Source: Candidatus Hermodarchaeota archaeon (lineage in GTDB: Archaea; Asgardarchaeota; Lokiarchaeia; Sigyniarchaeales; SOKP01). From it: DNA of 64,000 bases. This document shows, in pieces, positions 26,275 to 33,562 of this stretch. The notes under the pieces were generated by a model that was given only the letters and a program-made list of their open reading frames with translations, searched no databases and had not been told where the DNA came from. The DNA is taken from the NCBI GenBank assembly GCA_048885525.1, contig JBHLLP010000007.1:32001-96000 (forward strand). The letters run 5' to 3'. Every line of letters starts with the position of its first letter. The stretch's first letter is position 1. The position numbers and the translations under genes are program-made.

Positions 26275-27654
26275 TTATTTTTGAGTTAAATTTCGAAATT
26301 CAGTAATAGTCTTTTGGAGCTTTTCTAATAAATCCTTTACTTGACTGTTGAATTCTTTTAATGGAATCATTTCAGTGTTCAATTTTTCAATCTTCTCATC
26401 AATTTTTGACTGGAATGGTGCTATTGAATTCTTTATCTTCTTTTCTATACCTTGAGATAAATAATTTAGTCGATCATCCATATTTGTTATATAAGATTTG
26501 AGATTTTCCATTTTTTCTTCGAATTCTGAATTTACTTGAAAACTGTTTTCAACTTTTCCCTTCAATAAATATATTAAATTTTCAAGTTTAGTTTTAATTT
26601 CTAGGAAATTATCACCAATGAGATTTTTTAAATTACTTAAAAGTTCATTTTTGGTATCGGAAACACTTTTTGTGAGTTCTTTATTGCGAAGAACACGTGA
26701 GTTGACATAATTAAAAACACTCTTTTTAAACTCATTTGCTGTATCATTCAAAGTCTTATTAAACCAATTATCTACTTTAATTAGCCCCAATGATATCGCT
26801 TCATTCATTTTATTCACTGCTTTATTTATATATTCAGATCCTTTAGAAGTTCCTTGATCTATGTCTTTAATCCATTCTCCCATTTGATTTTTGGTTATCG
26901 CTATAAGCATTTCGGAGAGTTTCTCTGTTCCATCTTGAAAACCTGAATCTAGGGATGTCAAATCTAGAATTTTATCAAGTTCTCCTTCAATAGTCTGGGT
27001 ATCTTCAGAGATTGGGATTTCTTGTAAATCACTTGGAATTGGTTCAACAAATTCATTTATTTCTTTAATAAGAATTGGATTCCTTTTCTGAAAGTCTTCT
27101 GAGAATTTTTGAATCCATTTAAAATACTCTAATGAATTAGGTATTTCAACTTCAAAAGGTACAATATGATATTCGTCAGGTTTCATATAGGCATCTAATC
27201 TAAAAGCTTCAAATCCCAGACCTCCATCTTTGCCCATTAGTGTATGATCAAATACTATACAAAAACCATTTGGAAAATTTTCATTTTGAAAGTATTGAAT
27301 ATTCTTTAAATCACTTTCTGAGAGATATAACCCCCAGGAAGGATGAGAATGGTAATATCCTATTAACTCTGTTGAGTATTTTTTCCCAATCTGAGTAAGT
27401 AATTCATATATATCTTTATCGAATCCAATTTCTACTTTATCTCCATGAATTAGGGGTATCGCATTTTCCATAATGAGTTTATCAGTAGATGAATCATATT
27501 TTCCAATGCAGACTCCCAATACTTCGATACTTTTTTCTAATGCGTTATTACCAAAACGTAAAACATGAGTAAGCATATTTCTGAAAGCTTCTTTTTTAAT
27601 GAAAATATCTTTTTCTTTCTGATTTGATTTTTCCTTTGGTTGATTTTCATTCAA
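26275..27654 (-). CDS. MPN+/JAMM metalloprotease domain with a long C-terminal coiled coil
   Basis: EVLGVCIG ... GYYHSHPSWGLYLSESD (H-x-H-x7-S-x2-D intact); heptad-rich C-terminal ~230 aa. Confidence 0.88.
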   Translation of the reverse strand: MNENQPKEKSNQKEKDIFIKKEAFRNMLTHVLRFGNNALEKSIEVLGVCIGKYDSSTDKLIMENAIPLIHGDKVEIGFDKDIYELLTQIGKKYSTELIGYYHSHPSWGLYLSESDLKNIQYFQNENFPNGFCIVFDHTLMGKDGGLGFEAFRLDAYMKPDEYHIVPFEVEIPNSLEYFKWIQKFSEDFQKRNPILIKEINEFVEPIPSDLQEIPISEDTQTIEGELDKILDLTSLDSGFQDGTEKLSEMLIAITKNQMGEWIKDIDQGTSKGSEYINKAVNKMNEAISLGLIKVDNWFNKTLNDTANEFKKSVFNYVNSRVLRNKELTKSVSDTKNELLSNLKNLIGDNFLEIKTKLENLIYLLKGKVENSFQVNSEFEEKMENLKSYITNMDDRLNYLSQGIEKKIKNSIAPFQSKIDEKIEKLNTEMIPLKEFNSQVKDLLEKLQKTITEFRNLTQK

Positions 27655-27660
27655 TTATTC

Positions 27661-29127
27661 TTATCCCTCTTTTTTATCTAATTTTTCTATCTTATCTAAT
27701 AGCTCTTGATTTTTGCTTTTTAATTCTGCAATGGTTTTTTGAAGATTTTTAATTTCAATTTCTTGTGTGTCTAATTTATGCTTCAGCGGTGTTTTTGAGT
27801 TCTCTAATAAAATTATAGCAGCCTTTAAATCTGATAGAAAATTTTTAGCTTCTTTATTTTGATTGATAAAATTTCCAATAACCTTATTGGTATTTTTTAT
27901 AAAATTACTGGACATTCCTTCCATACCGTTATTTAAAATCTCTATAATTTCGTTTTCCATTAAATTAAAATTCTCTACTAAACTTTTTAAAATAAGTTTT
28001 TGCTCATCCAAACTTTCAGAGAATTTTAGGGCTGTAGAATTTACTTCTGATAATTTAGTTATTTGTTCATTAAATTGAAGCACAAAATTATTAATACTTT
28101 TCAGTAGTTCTTCTTTTAGAATTAATTTGAATTGTTGATTGAGTTCAGACTCGATATCTTTAAAGATGCTTTTAAAAGATTCTTGATCTGAATCAAATTC
28201 CTCGAATTTATCATCAATGTACATATCTAATTCATTTAATTTTTCTTTTAATGAAAATTTATAATCTTTTTGTAGCTTAGAAATCCCTTCACTTAGTTTG
28301 TTTTTTATAGCAATCAAATCTTTTCTCAATAGTAAATTTTTCTCAACAATATTCCGGATCATATTTTCACTCCACGAATTAAGTAATAAGATTAGCGGTG
28401 CGACGGATAACTCCAAGAATTTTGTTAAGGCAGTATTGATTGTAGAGAGAATTCTAGTAGAGTCTAAATCAGGCTTCTTTGCTAAAATCTGACTTTCACT
28501 TGGAAATGTGATATCTCCAAACAAATCGGGCATTTCATTTATTTCTAATATGGGGGGTTCTTTAGAGTGAACACAATTTATTAATTCAATTAATTTTAAA
28601 TAATATTCAATACTATCTGGGGGCTCAATAATTGTTTTTACTTCATGATAACCAGACATTTGTCCTTTTGCTGGATTATCTAATCTAAAGGTACGAAATC
28701 CTAAATCCCCGGGAGTTTCTAGATGTGCGTGGTCGAAAACAATTCCAACCGCACTTGGATTAGGAGTTTGCCACCCTAATTGGTTTCTTATATCCGTAGA
28801 TGAGAAGAATATATCTAATCCGGGGTGAGAATGATACCATCCACAACTAAACCAACCTTTTTCTGAATACTCAGCATCCACCATAGAAAATGTTACATAA
28901 TCCTCTGGGGCAAAAGCAACTTCAATTGCACCCCCATGTGAAATAGGAATAGCATCTTCGATTATAACATCTCTAATTCCTTTCTTATCTGGTTCACCCT
29001 CTAGATGACCAATGATTATTCCCATTACTTCTTTATACTGCTTTCGATCTCTTGCTTTATTTCCAAACCGGAGGACATGTATAAGCATTTTATAATAAGC
29101 TTCTGATTTAATAATAACAAAGCTCAA
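27661..29127 (-). CDS. MPN+/JAMM (Rpn11/CSN5-like) domain with a long C-terminal coiled coil
   Basis: AYYKMLIH, EVMGIIIG, GWYHSHPGLDIFFSSTDIRNQ, VGIVFD, FRTFRL; coiled-coil tail. Confidence 0.9.
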   Translation of the reverse strand: MSFVIIKSEAYYKMLIHVLRFGNKARDRKQYKEVMGIIIGHLEGEPDKKGIRDVIIEDAIPISHGGAIEVAFAPEDYVTFSMVDAEYSEKGWFSCGWYHSHPGLDIFFSSTDIRNQLGWQTPNPSAVGIVFDHAHLETPGDLGFRTFRLDNPAKGQMSGYHEVKTIIEPPDSIEYYLKLIELINCVHSKEPPILEINEMPDLFGDITFPSESQILAKKPDLDSTRILSTINTALTKFLELSVAPLILLLNSWSENMIRNIVEKNLLLRKDLIAIKNKLSEGISKLQKDYKFSLKEKLNELDMYIDDKFEEFDSDQESFKSIFKDIESELNQQFKLILKEELLKSINNFVLQFNEQITKLSEVNSTALKFSESLDEQKLILKSLVENFNLMENEIIEILNNGMEGMSSNFIKNTNKVIGNFINQNKEAKNFLSDLKAAIILLENSKTPLKHKLDTQEIEIKNLQKTIAELKSKNQELLDKIEKLDKKEG

Positions 29128-29352
29128 TTAGAATCACCATTTATATATTAGATTTAGTTTGTTAATGATCTATATATAGTTTAATTGGTTTTAAATATTT
29201 GAATAAAAATTGAAAATTAAATCTATTCTTTTAATTTATTCTCTGTTCTATTTTCTTTTTCAGAATAGACTTTAATTATACTTTCTTATTCTCTTAGTAT
29301 TTTTAAATCAAATAATAAATAAAGCCAGAAACAGAAATTTTTCTTTAAATTA

Positions 29353-30012
29353 TCATTCATGTGGTAATGGTTTTCCACAATAAGGACAGAATTTAAATCC
29401 TAAATCTTTACCACAATGTGGGCAAAAAGAACCTTCTGAGCTCACTGGGGCTTTTTCTTCAACACCTTCTTTTGGTATTGAAGGTAATTGTCGTGATGTC
29501 TTTAAGGTTGATACTGATGAGTCTGTATTGGTAGTTGGTACTTGTTTAGCTCTTACTCTCTCTTTAAAAGCTTGTCTTCTCTCTTCTTCACGTTCTTCTT
29601 GAGATTTCGTTCCTTCTGTCTTTACCCACCCTTGCGCTTGAGGTCTTTTTAATTCACTTTGAGGAACTTTTGCTAACTCTACTTCTTTTGTTTCTGAAAT
29701 AGGTGCTACTACTTTTCTTTCTTCCTTCTTCTTTAATGCTTGTTTAACAAGAGCCTGAGTTGTTTTCATTACTTGATGGGGATTAATATTAGGGATTGCC
29801 ACGGTTCTAAGAACCCAGCCTACAATAATATTCTGGTTTGGGAAATCGCCATCGACATCTTCATCCTTGAAAATATAGGAATCTATTACATCTCTTCCTT
29901 TTATTAAGCGCACTGCCCATTTTTCGTTTATTTCTCCTAATTGGATTCTATATGAGGTACCAGGTACTCCTAACTCGCTTGTAAGCGGAATAAAGCCTTT
30001 TTCAGTCAACAT
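29353..30012 (-). CDS. Hypothetical protein with a C-terminal double zinc ribbon
   Basis: Globular N-terminus, charged low-complexity linker, FCPHCG...FCPYCG. Confidence 0.8.
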   Translation of the reverse strand: MLTEKGFIPLTSELGVPGTSYRIQLGEINEKWAVRLIKGRDVIDSYIFKDEDVDGDFPNQNIIVGWVLRTVAIPNINPHQVMKTTQALVKQALKKKEERKVVAPISETKEVELAKVPQSELKRPQAQGWVKTEGTKSQEEREEERRQAFKERVRAKQVPTTNTDSSVSTLKTSRQLPSIPKEGVEEKAPVSSEGSFCPHCGKDLGFKFCPYCGKPLPHE

Positions 30013-30237
30013 TATTCACTTTTTGTATATAAGTAATATGATTTAAGTAATATATTAATGATAAATTTCGAATTTAAAATATTATTTATTTATAGTAAAA
30101 ATTTATGCGAATGTTATAAATTTTTTCTGAAGGATTAACTTGATAGGCTAAAAATTGGTTGAATTCTAAAATTTTGATCATAAGATTAAAAACACATAAA
30201 TACAAATTTTTCTATTACTTTGTAAAAAACCATTAAA

Positions 30238-31237
30238 GTGAAAAAAATGGGAAAAGTAATAATCCCAAAAAAAGTATATTTATGTTTAGTAGGAGCGTCA
30301 GTTAGGTTTGCTAACGTACGTATACCTAAAGATGATTGGTTAGAAGTGAGTGGTATATTTACAGGAAGAAATCAAGGAGAAGATGTCATCATCACAGAAT
30401 GTTACCCCATAATGCATCAAGAATTAGATAAAGATGCAGTTATCGATCAATATAAATGGAGTGATGAAGACTATGAAGCTTTATACATTATCGACGAATT
30501 AGCCTTCTCAAGAGATCCCCCAGAGTTTGTAGTTGGATGGTGGCACAGTCATCCAGGCTTTCAGAGCATTGGAGTTCCCACGCTCTAGCTAAAAGGTAAT
30601 GATGAGCCATATTGATATCCAAACTACTCTATCATACCAGCAAAATAATCCTTTAGCAATATCACTGGTTTTCAACCCTACAAGACTCATACGTCAGATC
30701 GAAGTAGCATATAAAAAAGGAGATCCCGATATACAATTAAAAAATGATCCTGGGTTTGAGATATTTAGGTTAGATGATATTAATCGAGGACTTGAAGCAT
30801 CTTATCATCCGGTAGATTATAAAATTGAAGGATATGATAGTATGGAACAATTAGTCAATTTAACTCAGAAGTTTACAATAGATATTACTAATTTCTTTCC
30901 TAAAACTAATGTTCCTAAAATGTATGATAAATTTGTTAATGATAGAATTACTGAATTAAATTCAAGATTTCAGGGAACTGAAGAATATCTGACCACTTTA
31001 ACCATCCGTGGGGAAAAAGAGCGAATTCCAGATGTCTTAAAGAATCAAAGTGAAGAAATCAGTAAATTTGTAGCAGAAACTTCGATTAAGATAGATCGTA
31101 TTAAGGAATTTATGGATTATTTAGAATATAAAGAAAGAGACACCATAGTACCTCAGATTGAGACAATTATACACAAATGGGATGATATGGTTGCGGGAGT
31201 AGATAAGAGAATAAAACAGCTAAAGAAGAAATTTTAA
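30238..31237 (+). CDS. Intron-containing MPN+/JAMM protein, join(30238..30561,30593..31237), 322 aa
   Basis: The two track ORFs are halves of one JAMM protein. Joining them gives EVSGIFTG...GWWHSHPGF|KVMMSHIDIQT...SLVFNP...FEIFRL, with canonical H-x-H-x7-S-x2-D spacing as in the two neighbouring paralogs. Confidence 0.88.
30562..30592 (+). other. 31-nt bulge-helix-bulge (BHB) intron in mRNA
   Basis: Central 4-bp helix GGCU(30556-59)/AGCU(30587-90), 3-nt bulges UU^C (30560-62) and AA^A (30591-93), intron stem AGAGC(30563-67)/GCUCU(30582-86). Cutting after the second nucleotide of each bulge removes exactly 31 nt and restores the frame. Confidence 0.85.
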
Positions 31238-31357
31238 ATTTAATAATTTTCATCTTATTTTTCATTTTGATAAATTTTTATTTGATTACACTTTTTTTTG
31301 ATTAAATATCAATTATTTAAAATAAAATCAGAGAATTTTTAGAATATAATCATTATC

Positions 31358-33562
31358 ATGAAAAAAATTAATTTTCCTTTTACAGCGATTCTTGGCCAAG
31401 AAAAAATGAAGATGGGGCTAATTTTAAACGTTATTGACCCTCAAATAGGTGGTATCTTATTAACTGGTCAACAAGGTACAGGAAAAAGCACAGCTGTAAG
31501 ATCTCTCGTGGAATTGATGCCCCAAATTGAAGTAGTTAAAGATTGTGAGTTTTCTTGTGATCCTCATTCTGATATAGATGATTTATGTCAAAATTGTATA
31601 GAAAGAAAGGAAAAAAAGCAAATAAAAACAAAGTTCCGGGATATGTGGCTTGTAAATTTGCCTTTAGGAGTCACAGAAGATATGGTTTGTGGAAGTTTAT
31701 CTATAGATAAGGTATTAACCGAAGGAATAAGAGCTTTACATCCTGGGCTACTTGCTAAAGCAAACAGAGGTATTCTATATGTAGATGAGATTAATCTACT
31801 CCAAGATCATATTGTTGATGTACTTTTAGATTCTGCAGCTTCAGGTGTAAATATAATAGAAAGAGAAGGAATATCTATATCACATCCTTCAAGATTCGTG
31901 TTAGTTGGTTCAATGAACCCAGAAGAAGGTGATTTAAGACCACAAATTGCTGATCGTCTTGGTTTAGAGGTAAGAATAAAAGCACCAAGAGATTCAGAAT
32001 TAAGAGCTGAAATCACAAAAAGAGTAATAGAATTTGATGATCATCCAAAAGAATTTATTAAAAATTTTGAAGAAAAACAAGAAAAATTAAGAGAACAAAT
32101 CCTTAATGCTCGTAATATACTAAAGGAAGTTCAAATCCCAAGTTCAGTATATGAATTTGTATCTAGAATTGTAAATGAATTAGAGATCTTTTCTCAAAGG
32201 GCAGATATAACTTTTATTAGATGCGCCAGAGCTTATGCTGCTTTAAATGGTCGAAAGATTATTGTAGAGGATGATCTAAATATAGCAATGGACTTAGTAT
32301 TCGAGCATAGAATTCAATCGCTCCATTATGAAATGACACCAGAAGAAATAAAATCTAAGATTGCTGAAGTCTACGGAAAAATAAAAGAAGCCTATGAAGA
32401 CACAAAACTACTTCAACCAAATAGAGAGACAGAAGGCCCATTAAAACATGATAATAGTTCTCAAAAAGAATTTAAACGCCAATCTGTCGATCCTGATAAA
32501 ATAGAGATCCCAGAGTCACAAGAACAGAAATTACCTCCTCCAAAATATCCAGACAATAAAAAAAGAAATCCTAAACCAGCAGGAGGTTGGAAAGTAAAGA
32601 ATATTCCTTTTGATGATGATCTTAGATTTTTTGACGATAAACCTGCTTCATTACCATTTATTTATAAGATGGAAAAGAAAATGACATCCATCTTAGATAA
32701 CATCAGAAAAGACAGGAAGATTTCTGATTATGGTGGAAGAGGGATTGGAAGAAGAATAAAAATATCTTCATCCCAAAAAGGGAGATATGTATCTTATCAA
32801 TCGCCTATACGTGAACAGCCAAAAAGTATTGCTTTAGACGCCACAATTAGGAACTATTTAAAAAATATTGTATATAATAAAACTGAAATTGATTTCCCAA
32901 TACACTTTAATAAATATGATTTAATGGATAAAATCTATGAATATCGAGCACCATTAGCTCTTTTTTTTGTTTTGGATAGTTCAGCATCAATGTATTATGT
33001 AATAAAACAGATGACCGATGTAATATTATCATTACATCGAGAAGGATACAGGAAAAGAGATAAAATAGCTTTAATTGTTTTTCGTGGTAAAGATGCTGTC
33101 GTACTCCAGAAACCTACAGTAAACTTTAAGGCAGCTGTTAGTAAATTGAAAAAAATTGAAGGCAAATCTTATACTCCAATGGCAGCAGCATTAAAAAAAG
33201 TATCTGAACTAATAAAAGTTGAAAAATTGAAGGATCGAAATATTATTCCTATCGTATTTATATGCAGTGATTGTGGAGCAAATATTTCAGTGAAATACCC
33301 AGATCTAATAGCGCAAATTGAAACTGATTATACTTTAATTACAAATGAACTAAAGGAACTGACAAAAAAATTGTCAAAACAAAACATACATATGGTTGTC
33401 CTTCAACCAAAAAAATCTTATGCAACACACGCTTTGGGGGTGCATACATATTCGGCAGATCATATTAAAAAAAATTTTAAAAAATATGCTAATGCTCAAA
33501 TTTATAAATTTAATAAATATAATCCCAACTCTTTAATACTAGAATTGAAAAAGATTCTTTAA
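31358..33562 (+). CDS. ChlI/ChlD (Mg/Co-chelatase-like) AAA+ ATPase fused to a VWA domain
   Basis: FPFTAILGQE, Walker A GQQGTGKS, PGLLAKANRGILYVDEINLL, MNPEEGDLRPQ, Pro-rich linker, VWA MIDAS DSSASM and TPMA. Confidence 0.88.
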   Translation: MKKINFPFTAILGQEKMKMGLILNVIDPQIGGILLTGQQGTGKSTAVRSLVELMPQIEVVKDCEFSCDPHSDIDDLCQNCIERKEKKQIKTKFRDMWLVNLPLGVTEDMVCGSLSIDKVLTEGIRALHPGLLAKANRGILYVDEINLLQDHIVDVLLDSAASGVNIIEREGISISHPSRFVLVGSMNPEEGDLRPQIADRLGLEVRIKAPRDSELRAEITKRVIEFDDHPKEFIKNFEEKQEKLREQILNARNILKEVQIPSSVYEFVSRIVNELEIFSQRADITFIRCARAYAALNGRKIIVEDDLNIAMDLVFEHRIQSLHYEMTPEEIKSKIAEVYGKIKEAYEDTKLLQPNRETEGPLKHDNSSQKEFKRQSVDPDKIEIPESQEQKLPPPKYPDNKKRNPKPAGGWKVKNIPFDDDLRFFDDKPASLPFIYKMEKKMTSILDNIRKDRKISDYGGRGIGRRIKISSSQKGRYVSYQSPIREQPKSIALDATIRNYLKNIVYNKTEIDFPIHFNKYDLMDKIYEYRAPLALFFVLDSSASMYYVIKQMTDVILSLHREGYRKRDKIALIVFRGKDAVVLQKPTVNFKAAVSKLKKIEGKSYTPMAAALKKVSELIKVEKLKDRNIIPIVFICSDCGANISVKYPDLIAQIETDYTLITNELKELTKKLSKQNIHMVVLQPKKSYATHALGVHTYSADHIKKNFKKYANAQIYKFNKYNPNSLILELKKIL

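What the first reader, a model, noticed from the sequence alone, without database searches (positions are those of the whole stretch)
30541..30610. Bulge-helix-bulge intron inside the catalytic motif of a protein-coding JAMM gene
Seen in sequence: the JAMM gene is broken by a 31-nt insert CAGAGCATTGGAGTTCCCACGCTCTAGCTAA (30562-30592; 16/31 GC in a very AT-rich window). The RNA folds into an archaeal splicing-endonuclease substrate. The 4-bp central helix is GGCU(30556-59):AGCU(30587-90), the 3-nt bulges are UUC (30560-62) and AAA (30591-93), and the intron stem is AGAGC:GCUCU. There is also an imperfect exon-exon stem (CC:GG, UCAU:AUGA, UGGC:GCCA) that begins with an A-A mismatch, so the exon side is slightly relaxed. 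Established: EndA cuts after the second nucleotide of each bulge and RtcB ligates. Applying that rule with no free parameter gives GGC TTT|AAG GTA ATG ATG AGC CAT ATT GAT = HSHPGF|KVMMSHID, the exact H-x-H-x7-S-x2-D spacing of both neighbouring paralogs. BHB introns are normally in tRNA and rRNA; the well-documented mRNA case I know of is crenarchaeal cbf5. Inference: this is mRNA splicing by the tRNA-splicing machinery in an Asgard archaeon, in a Rpn11/CSN5-like gene that automated pipelines would call two genes or a frameshift.
Basis: partly seen in the sequence, partly recalled or inferred. Interest (0 to 1): 0.97.

Follow-up and report, generated by a model that had tools for sequence, protein, structure and literature searches.

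The report
tRNA-type intron splits Asgard JAMM gene
A 31-base insert breaks the zinc-binding site of a protease gene in an Asgard (Lokiarchaeia) archaeon, and it has the RNA shape that tRNA-splicing enzymes cut, so the message is very probably spliced, which the papers I could search document inside an archaeal coding sequence for only one gene family (cbf5).

Summary
Confirmed. A 31-nt insert (30562-30592) splits a Rpn11/CSN5/BRCC36-like JAMM gene of a Promethearchaeota (Lokiarchaeia) genome inside its zinc motif. Two other assemblies carry it identically. Of 14 deletion registers that restore the motif spacing, the bulge-helix-bulge (BHB) rule picks F|K, which is what intronless orthologues encode (96 of 120 proteins match the motif exactly). 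Twelve of 50 scorable genomes of the genus carry an insert at this site. All 15 insert variants (29-32 nt) keep the 4-bp helix, some through compensatory changes, and all break the reading frame. Both exons stay under purifying selection. The genome encodes RtcB and a two-subunit EndA with the broad-specificity loop. Best reading (about 0.9): an EndA/RtcB-spliced mRNA intron. The intron is patchy (at least 11 changes on the gene tree), and one subtype recurs in distant clades without shared flanks, hinting at lateral movement. Six other genes of this genome carry similar 30-31-nt inserts. The scan has noted this phenomenon before, on other DNA and in this gene family. Papers I could search report only cbf5 and one Haloferax 5' UTR.

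The parts
30247..30561 (+). Exon 1 of the JAMM/MPN+ gene (codons 1-105 from ATG 30247; an in-frame GTG lies at 30238). Carries the putative catalytic Glu33 (30343-45) and the Zn ligands His100 (30544-46) and His102 (30550-52).
   Evidence: Pfam JAB match at model positions 5-97 of 117; residue roles from established JAMM chemistry and alignment to CSN5
30562..30592 (+). 31-nt BHB-type intron (phase 0). It carries the stop of the unspliced frame (TAG 30586-88) and a TAA (30590-92) that closes the exon-2 frame.
30556..30562 (+). 5' strand of the 4-bp central helix (30556-59, exonic) and the 3-nt bulge with the 5' splice site (cut predicted after 30561)
30587..30593 (+). 3' strand of the central helix (30587-90, intronic) and the 3-nt bulge with the 3' splice site (cut predicted after 30592)
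30563..30586 (+). Intron hairpin: outer 5-bp stem (30563-67 with 30582-86) and inner 3-bp stem (30570-72 with 30578-80) closing a 5-nt loop (30573-77)
   Evidence: five of eight intron pairs show changes on both sides
30593..31237 (+). Exon 2 (codons 106-319 and stop). Carries Ser110 (30605-07), the third Zn ligand Asp113 (30614-16), the rest of the MPN fold and a C-terminal helical bundle. Annotated in databases as a separate 212-aa hypothetical protein from ATG 30599.
   Evidence: model of the closest intronless orthologue
27661..29127 (-). Intact JAMM paralogue (488 aa) with the full H-x-H-x7-S-x2-D motif and no insert
26275..27654 (-). Second intact JAMM paralogue (459 aa), no insert

Best explanation
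The insert is a tRNA-type (BHB-like) intron in a protein-coding mRNA. The pre-mRNA folds so that the last exon-1 bases pair with the intron's 3' end. The host's two-subunit splicing endonuclease EndA cuts after the second base of each bulge, RtcB joins the exons (and probably circularises the intron), and the 319-codon message encodes a complete JAMM metalloprotease. Shown here: the insert, its boundaries, conservation of the fold, selection on both exons, and presence of the enzymes. Inferred: cleavage, ligation, intron circles and production of the full protein.
For: (1) The BHB rule predicts the junction found in intronless orthologues: 96 of 120 proteins read exactly HSHPGFKVMMSHID and the rest are close variants. 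(2) 12 of 50 scorable genomes of the genus plus metagenome contigs have an insert at the identical site; 15 variants of 29-32 nt all keep 4/4 helix pairs, with G-C to A-U and C-G to U-A double changes. On a 14-row alignment the helix is 100% paired; 7 of 15 pairs change on both sides, 0 of 500 shuffles reach this, and slid registers fall to 19-54% paired. (3) The exon base inside the helix, a third codon position, is C or T in 15/15 intron-bearing variants against 48/99 intronless genes. (4) All 15 inserts break the frame, and all end with a stop in the exon-2 frame, yet dN/dS is 0.03-0.19 in both exons in the informative pairs, like intronless pairs. (5) The genome has two EndA subunits and RtcB. 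The catalytic subunit is closest to Aeropyrum pernix EndA and aligns with its Lys44, Arg46 and His133; Lys44 lies in the loop that confers cleavage of relaxed motifs (PMC3241643). (6) purA, selD, rnhB, AMP phosphorylase, a response regulator and mevalonate kinase (relaxed helix, 3 of 4 pairs) of this genome have 30-31-nt inserts whose BHB register restores the protein; the purA and rnhB inserts recur in relatives.
Against: The window's motif is relaxed on the exon side (A.A mismatch). In 5 of 13 variants folded, the BHB fold is not dominant at 37 C (helix probability 0.12 or less). The structure counted was derived from these sequences and kin are not independent, so its significance and the Fisher test overstate.
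Confidence: 0.9

Rival explanations
1. Split gene: the two halves are translated as separate polypeptides (113 aa, and 212 aa from ATG 30599) that reassemble into one JAMM domain; no splicing.
For: An ATG ATG follows six bases into exon 2, with a purine-rich stretch in front of it; annotators call both ORFs; both halves are under purifying selection.
Against: It does not explain why 15/15 inserts keep an exon-intron helix with compensatory changes, or why their length stays at 29-32 nt. The break falls inside the 14-residue Zn motif, and the junk tail of the first product differs in every lineage. The purine-rich stretch is simply the Lys-Val codons, which intronless genes also have.
Confidence: 0.03
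2. Translational recoding (programmed frameshift, stop read-through or ribosomal bypass of the hairpin) gives the full protein from unspliced mRNA.
For: A stable small hairpin follows the last exon-1 codon; in several variants the first intron codon after Phe is a Lys codon resembling the landing codon.
Against: Insert lengths fall in all three frames (29, 30, 31, 32 nt), and each has a stop just before exon 2 in the exon-2 frame, so no single shift works; read-through would add about 10 residues inside the Zn motif. In the window the codon after Phe is Gln, so there is no matching take-off and landing codon. The pairing with exon 1 would be unnecessary.
Confidence: 0.03
3. Inactivated gene: a small insertion knocked out a dispensable paralogue.
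For: Two intact JAMM paralogues sit next door and others elsewhere in the genome.
Against: dN/dS well below 1 on both exons between intron-bearing lineages whose synonymous sites have diverged strongly; no other break in the genes aligned; compensatory pairing in the insert.
Confidence: 0.02
4. The intron is removed from the RNA, but by an enzyme or ribozyme other than EndA/RtcB.
For: The motif is relaxed, and a 5-nt loop of the type A-N-N-U-Y recurs in several of these inserts, which could be a separate recognition signal.
Against: The geometry (4-bp helix, two 3-nt bulges, cut after the second base) is the EndA rule and gives the right protein in seven genes of this genome; 31 nt is too short for a group I or II ribozyme (own knowledge); no Rfam match.
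Confidence: 0.02

Closest known systems
cbf5 (pseudouridine synthase) pre-mRNA intron of Crenarchaeota (Watanabe 2002; Yokobori 2009, PMC2738675)
   Same: Short (16-44 nt there, 29-32 nt here) BHB or relaxed-BHB intron in a coding sequence; interrupts the catalytic motif; host has a two-subunit EndA; the intron is present in some lineages and precisely absent in others.
   Different: Different phylum (Promethearchaeota) and gene (JAMM protease, not an RNA-modifying enzyme). Here at least seven genes in one genome carry such inserts, and presence varies between species of one genus and gene by gene. cbf5 splicing was confirmed by cDNA; this one is not.
BHB-processed 5' UTR of Haloferax volcanii HVO_1309 (PMC7714728)
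   Same: An mRNA substrate of the splicing endonuclease.
   Different: Lies in the 5' UTR, so the protein does not depend on exact joining; cleavage was shown in vitro.
Non-canonical tRNA introns of Asgard archaea (bioRxiv 10.64898/2026.10.13.758758; PMC11291895)
   Same: BHB introns gained repeatedly in Asgard lineages, with a two-paralogue EndA in most genomes.
   Different: Those papers treat tRNA genes only (the preprint has no occurrence of 'mRNA'), and the heavy burden is in Jordiarchaeia and Atabeyarchaeia, not in coding genes of Lokiarchaeia.
JAMM/MPN+ isopeptidases Rpn11, CSN5, BRCC36 and Caldiarchaeum Rpn11 (host gene)
   Same: Full Glu plus H-x-H-x7-S-x2-D motif after splicing; best sequence and fold matches are CSN5, Rpn11 and BRCC36, with an MPN domain followed by a helical tail.
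   Different: Identity to solved structures is only about 13-21% in the fold search; orthology to any one eukaryotic family, substrate and partners were not tested.

Membership tests
Archaeal BHB (EndA-spliced) intron | 4-bp central helix between two 3-nt bulges on opposite strands | tested here: met
   Window fold; 15/15 variants with 4/4 pairs; 100% paired with double changes
Archaeal BHB (EndA-spliced) intron | Flanking helices on both sides (strict form) or on one side (relaxed form) | tested here: met
   Relaxed form only in the window: intron stem 5/5, exon side begins with an A.A mismatch. Subtype B variants have the reverse (exon side 3/3, internal loop on the intron side). One variant (L194) is strict on both sides.
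Archaeal BHB (EndA-spliced) intron | Cuts after the second base of each bulge regenerate the uninterrupted sequence | tested here: met
   Gives Phe-Lys as in intronless orthologues; the 13 other registers that keep the spacing give other residues
Archaeal BHB (EndA-spliced) intron | Host encodes EndA able to cut relaxed motifs, and an RNA ligase | tested here: met
   Two EndA paralogues and RtcB; catalytic subunit aligns with A. pernix Lys44, Arg46, His133; the second lacks the catalytic His. Presence only; activity not tested.
Archaeal BHB (EndA-spliced) intron | Spliced RNA, excised or circular intron, or cleavage by EndA observed | not testable with these tools
JAMM/MPN+ metalloprotease (spliced product) | Glu plus H-x-H-x7-S-x2-D motif in an MPN fold | tested here: met
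JAMM/MPN+ metalloprotease (spliced product) | Zn-dependent isopeptidase activity on ubiquitin-like conjugates | not testable with these tools
   Needs a biochemical assay
Group I or II intron, or homing-endonuclease intron | Catalytic RNA core or intron-encoded ORF | tested here: not met
   31 nt, no ORF, no Rfam match at useful score
Insertion-sequence or MITE footprint | Other copies in the genome, terminal repeats or target-site duplication | tested here: not met
   No second copy beyond 12-13-nt chance matches; no duplication at the junction

The most novel reading that the evidence does not exclude
In Lokiarchaeia, splicing of messenger RNA by the tRNA machinery is a routine step for many core genes. 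The roughly 30-nt introns sit in active-site codons, are lost or gained precisely gene by gene, and can pass between lineages at the same site without carrying flanking DNA, so they behave as minimal mobile introns in close relatives of eukaryotes.
Probability: 0.45. Interest if true: 0.93.

Novelty: new variant of a known kind. Interest (0 to 1): 0.85.

Why it matters
Endonuclease-type splicing inside an archaeal coding sequence is documented, in the papers I could search, for one gene family only (cbf5). Here it appears in a ubiquitin-system protease and at least six other genes of one Asgard genome. If real, intron-interrupted protein genes exist at some scale in a lineage close to eukaryotes, by a non-spliceosomal route, which bears on how cells came to tolerate mRNA introns. 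In practice, Lokiarchaeia annotations contain falsely split or missing genes (this one is deposited as two proteins of 113 and 212 aa), which affects metabolic and eukaryote-signature inventories. The claim is cheap to test with a synthetic 110-nt RNA and the recombinant EndA pair, or with existing sediment metatranscriptomes.

Tried and rejected
A search for a cDNA-like contig (full-length protein nearly identical to a spliced product) found nothing above 94%. Ab initio BHB census of the genome: four versions (timed out) showed no enrichment at 29-32 nt over control lengths, so I give no genome-wide count; the JAMM site ranked at or near the top, and purA and rnhB were recovered. A new candidate from that scan (G000 C58, near 7784) was rejected: relatives show an ordinary zinc-ribbon ORF in another frame. 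My motif search did not locate the cdhA candidate noted by another reader. Co-conversion of flanks with the intron: not seen; synonymous identity next to the site is the same for intron-bearing and intronless pairs. Intron load as a whole-genome trait: not supported; six genomes with the JAMM intron lack the purA intron. Open-frame length alone could not score purA, rnhB or mevalonate kinase introns. One search used a structure string off by one column and is superseded. The single-sequence fold was poor and was replaced. One search failed on wrong coordinates. A kink-turn reading of subtype B was considered by eye and does not fit.

Full report
Observation. The window has a JAMM/MPN gene in two ORFs, 30238/30247-30588 and 30599-31237. 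Removing 30562-30592 (31 nt, 16 G+C) joins them into a 319-aa protein with the motif H-x-H-x7-S-x2-D. The predicted fold has a 4-bp helix (30556-59 with 30587-90), 3-nt bulges at 30560-62 and 30591-93, a 5-bp intron stem, and an exon-exon stem that starts with an A.A mismatch. The overall folding energy is not unusual (z -1.38), but the specific geometry is: a random genomic 31-mer at this site gives helix plus intron stem in 0.02% of draws. Two other NCBI assemblies carry the locus with 100% identity over 3039 nt, so it is not an assembly error.

Boundaries. Motif spacing alone leaves 14 possible 31-nt deletions. The endonuclease rule (cut after the second base of each bulge; established) selects one, which gives Gly-Phe|Lys-Val. 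That is the sequence of intronless orthologues: 96 of 120 full-length proteins match the 14-residue motif exactly and the others are close variants (DNA). RNA shape and protein homology therefore agree independently.

Relatives. Named relatives are mostly Promethearchaeota (Lokiarchaeia) MAGs. Among GTDB genomes of the family, 12 of 50 scorable members of the window's genus have an insert at the same position; the 69 genomes of other genera with a strong match all have long open frames of 281 aa or more. With metagenome and assembly contigs there are 15 distinct variants of 29, 30, 31 or 32 nt. All keep four pairs in the central helix. Two pairs change on both sides (G-C to A-U together with a Gly to Asp change in the exon, with a G-U form in another lineage; C-G to U-A). 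On a 14-row alignment the helix is 100% paired, 7 of 15 pairs show double changes, and no shuffle or slid register matches the paired fraction (the structure came from these sequences, so this overstates). The third codon position inside the helix is C or T in 15/15 intron-bearing variants but 48/99 intronless genes, and real intron ends would pair fully with only 41% of intronless exons. Every insert destroys the frame, including the 30-nt ones, which hold in-frame stops, and every one ends in a stop in the exon-2 frame. Yet both exons evolve under purifying selection like intronless genes (dN/dS 0.03-0.19 in informative pairs). A gene that is broken, selected, and broken by a structure conserved at the level of base pairs is best explained by RNA splicing.

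Two structural subtypes. Subtype A (window) has a full intron stem and mostly a relaxed exon side. Subtype B has a full exon side and an internal loop on the intron side. Both are relaxed motifs of the kind that two-subunit endonucleases cut (PMC3241643). The genome has two EndA paralogues and RtcB. The 198-aa subunit is closest to Aeropyrum pernix EndA (E 8e-36) and aligns with its His133 and with Lys44 and Arg46 of the specificity loop; the 205-aa subunit lacks the His. This shows capability by homology, not activity.

Mechanism. Shown: insert, boundaries, conserved fold, selection, enzymes present. Inferred: the pre-mRNA folds, EndA cuts after 30561 and 30592, RtcB ligates the exons, and the intron leaves, probably as a circle. 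Unspliced message would stop at 30586-88 and give a 113-aa fragment with Glu33, His100 and His102 but without Ser110 and Asp113, so it would be inactive. Whether this is used for regulation is unknown; the many precise absences in close relatives suggest the intron is dispensable.

History. On a tree of 67 genes the intron needs at least 11 changes of state; counts cannot separate gain from loss. Sister pairs differ only by the clean presence or absence of the insert. All inserts align to each other, which points to one origin at this site followed by many precise losses, as proposed for cbf5, or by repeated spread. Subtype B occurs in two distant clades (one-clade test rejected, p-AU 1e-63). 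Its introns are about 90% identical while synonymous sites are 54-58% identical, and the flanks follow the intronless sisters, not the other B clade. At least one lateral transfer of the intron alone is the simplest reading. Strong sequence constraint with convergence, or a mosaic gene tree, is not excluded: some subtype A pairs also reach 87%.

Not an isolated case. Following leads from earlier notes of this scan, I checked other genes of the same genome. purA, selD, rnhB, AMP phosphorylase and a response regulator have 30-31-nt inserts with 4/4 helices, and mevalonate kinase has one with 3/4; in each the BHB register restores the protein motif. In 20 hand-picked relatives each, the purA insert was present in 10 and absent in 10, and the rnhB insert was present in 19. 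Presence is gene-specific, not a property of the genome. My ab initio scans were too noisy for a census. Earlier agents of this scan reported the same kind of intron in other Lokiarchaeia genes and in this JAMM family; these notes are leads, not independent support.

Host gene. A model of the closest intronless orthologue (pLDDT 86) is an MPN domain with a C-terminal helical bundle. Best matches are BRCC36, Rpn11 and CSN5 by fold and CSN5 and Rpn11 by sequence. Two intact JAMM paralogues lie 1-4 kb away on the other strand. Substrate and partners were not tested.

Literature. The papers I could search report endonuclease-type introns in one archaeal coding sequence, cbf5, plus a Haloferax 5' UTR; the 2009 paper says other cases were only predicted. 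Recent Asgard intron papers cover tRNAs only. Further searches found no report for Asgard mRNAs; subscription journals are largely missing from the library.

Verdict. Confidence in EndA/RtcB splicing is about 0.9; it is a new variant of a known kind; interest 0.85.

Noticed in passing
G000 C54 8745-8775 (-), locus L195; relatives L200-L219: purA has a 31-nt BHB insert splitting the Asp codon of its WGDEGKG motif; present in 10 and cleanly absent in 10 of 20 hand-picked relatives.
   Followed up: yes
G000 C4 36149-36178 (+), locus L197; relatives L220-L239: rnhB (RNase HII) has a 30-nt insert in its DEAGRG motif; present in 19 of 20 relatives checked, some with only 3 of 4 helix pairs.
   Followed up: yes
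G000 C16 19010-19040 (+); C52 11536-11566 (-); C10 11482-11512 (-); C6 109044-109073 (+): selD, a response regulator, mevalonate kinase and AMP phosphorylase each carry a 30-31-nt insert whose BHB register restores the protein motif.
   Followed up: partly
window 30573-30577 and the matching loops in the purA, rnhB, mevalonate kinase and response-regulator inserts: A 5-nt loop of the type A-N-N-U-Y sits at intron positions 11-16 in five of seven inserts of unrelated genes (not in selD or AMP phosphorylase); it may reflect common origin or a recognition signal. As a scan filter it gave no enrichment.
   Followed up: partly
window 26275-33562: Three JAMM/MPN+ genes with helical tails cluster around a zinc-ribbon gene (29353-30012) and are followed by a ChlI-type AAA+/vWA gene (31358-33562); an oppositely oriented JAMM paralogue lies just upstream in many relatives. 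Possibly a proteasome-lid- or BRCC36-like assembly.
   Followed up: no
L035 (G083 C2 near 12.6 kb): The orthologue matches only from about residue 128; the DNA upstream is unrelated, so the gene is disrupted or misassembled.
   Followed up: no
L036 (G124 C11 near 62.9 kb): The orthologue has a frameshift near residue 38 with a short deletion and no obvious insert; an error or a true lesion.
   Followed up: no
G000 C37 near 29.3-29.4 kb (-): A 22-codon stretch is 64% identical to the JAMM motif region; it may be part of a further, divergent or split JAMM gene.
   Followed up: no
G000 tRNA genes: ARAGORN finds only about 23 tRNAs; many appear to have introns at unusual positions or several introns, and anticodons are often miscalled. 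A tRNA-Sec is present on C8.
   Followed up: no
L054-L117 record titles: Several near-identical Lokiarchaeia loci are deposited under other names (Thorarchaeota, Hodarchaeota, Odinarchaeota, one Nanopelagicaceae bacterium), suggesting mislabelled or contaminated bins.
   Followed up: no
G000 C58 7784-7814 (+), locus L240: A hairpin with perfect BHB geometry that is not an intron: it lies in an ordinary zinc-ribbon ORF. It shows that geometry alone gives false positives.
   Followed up: yes
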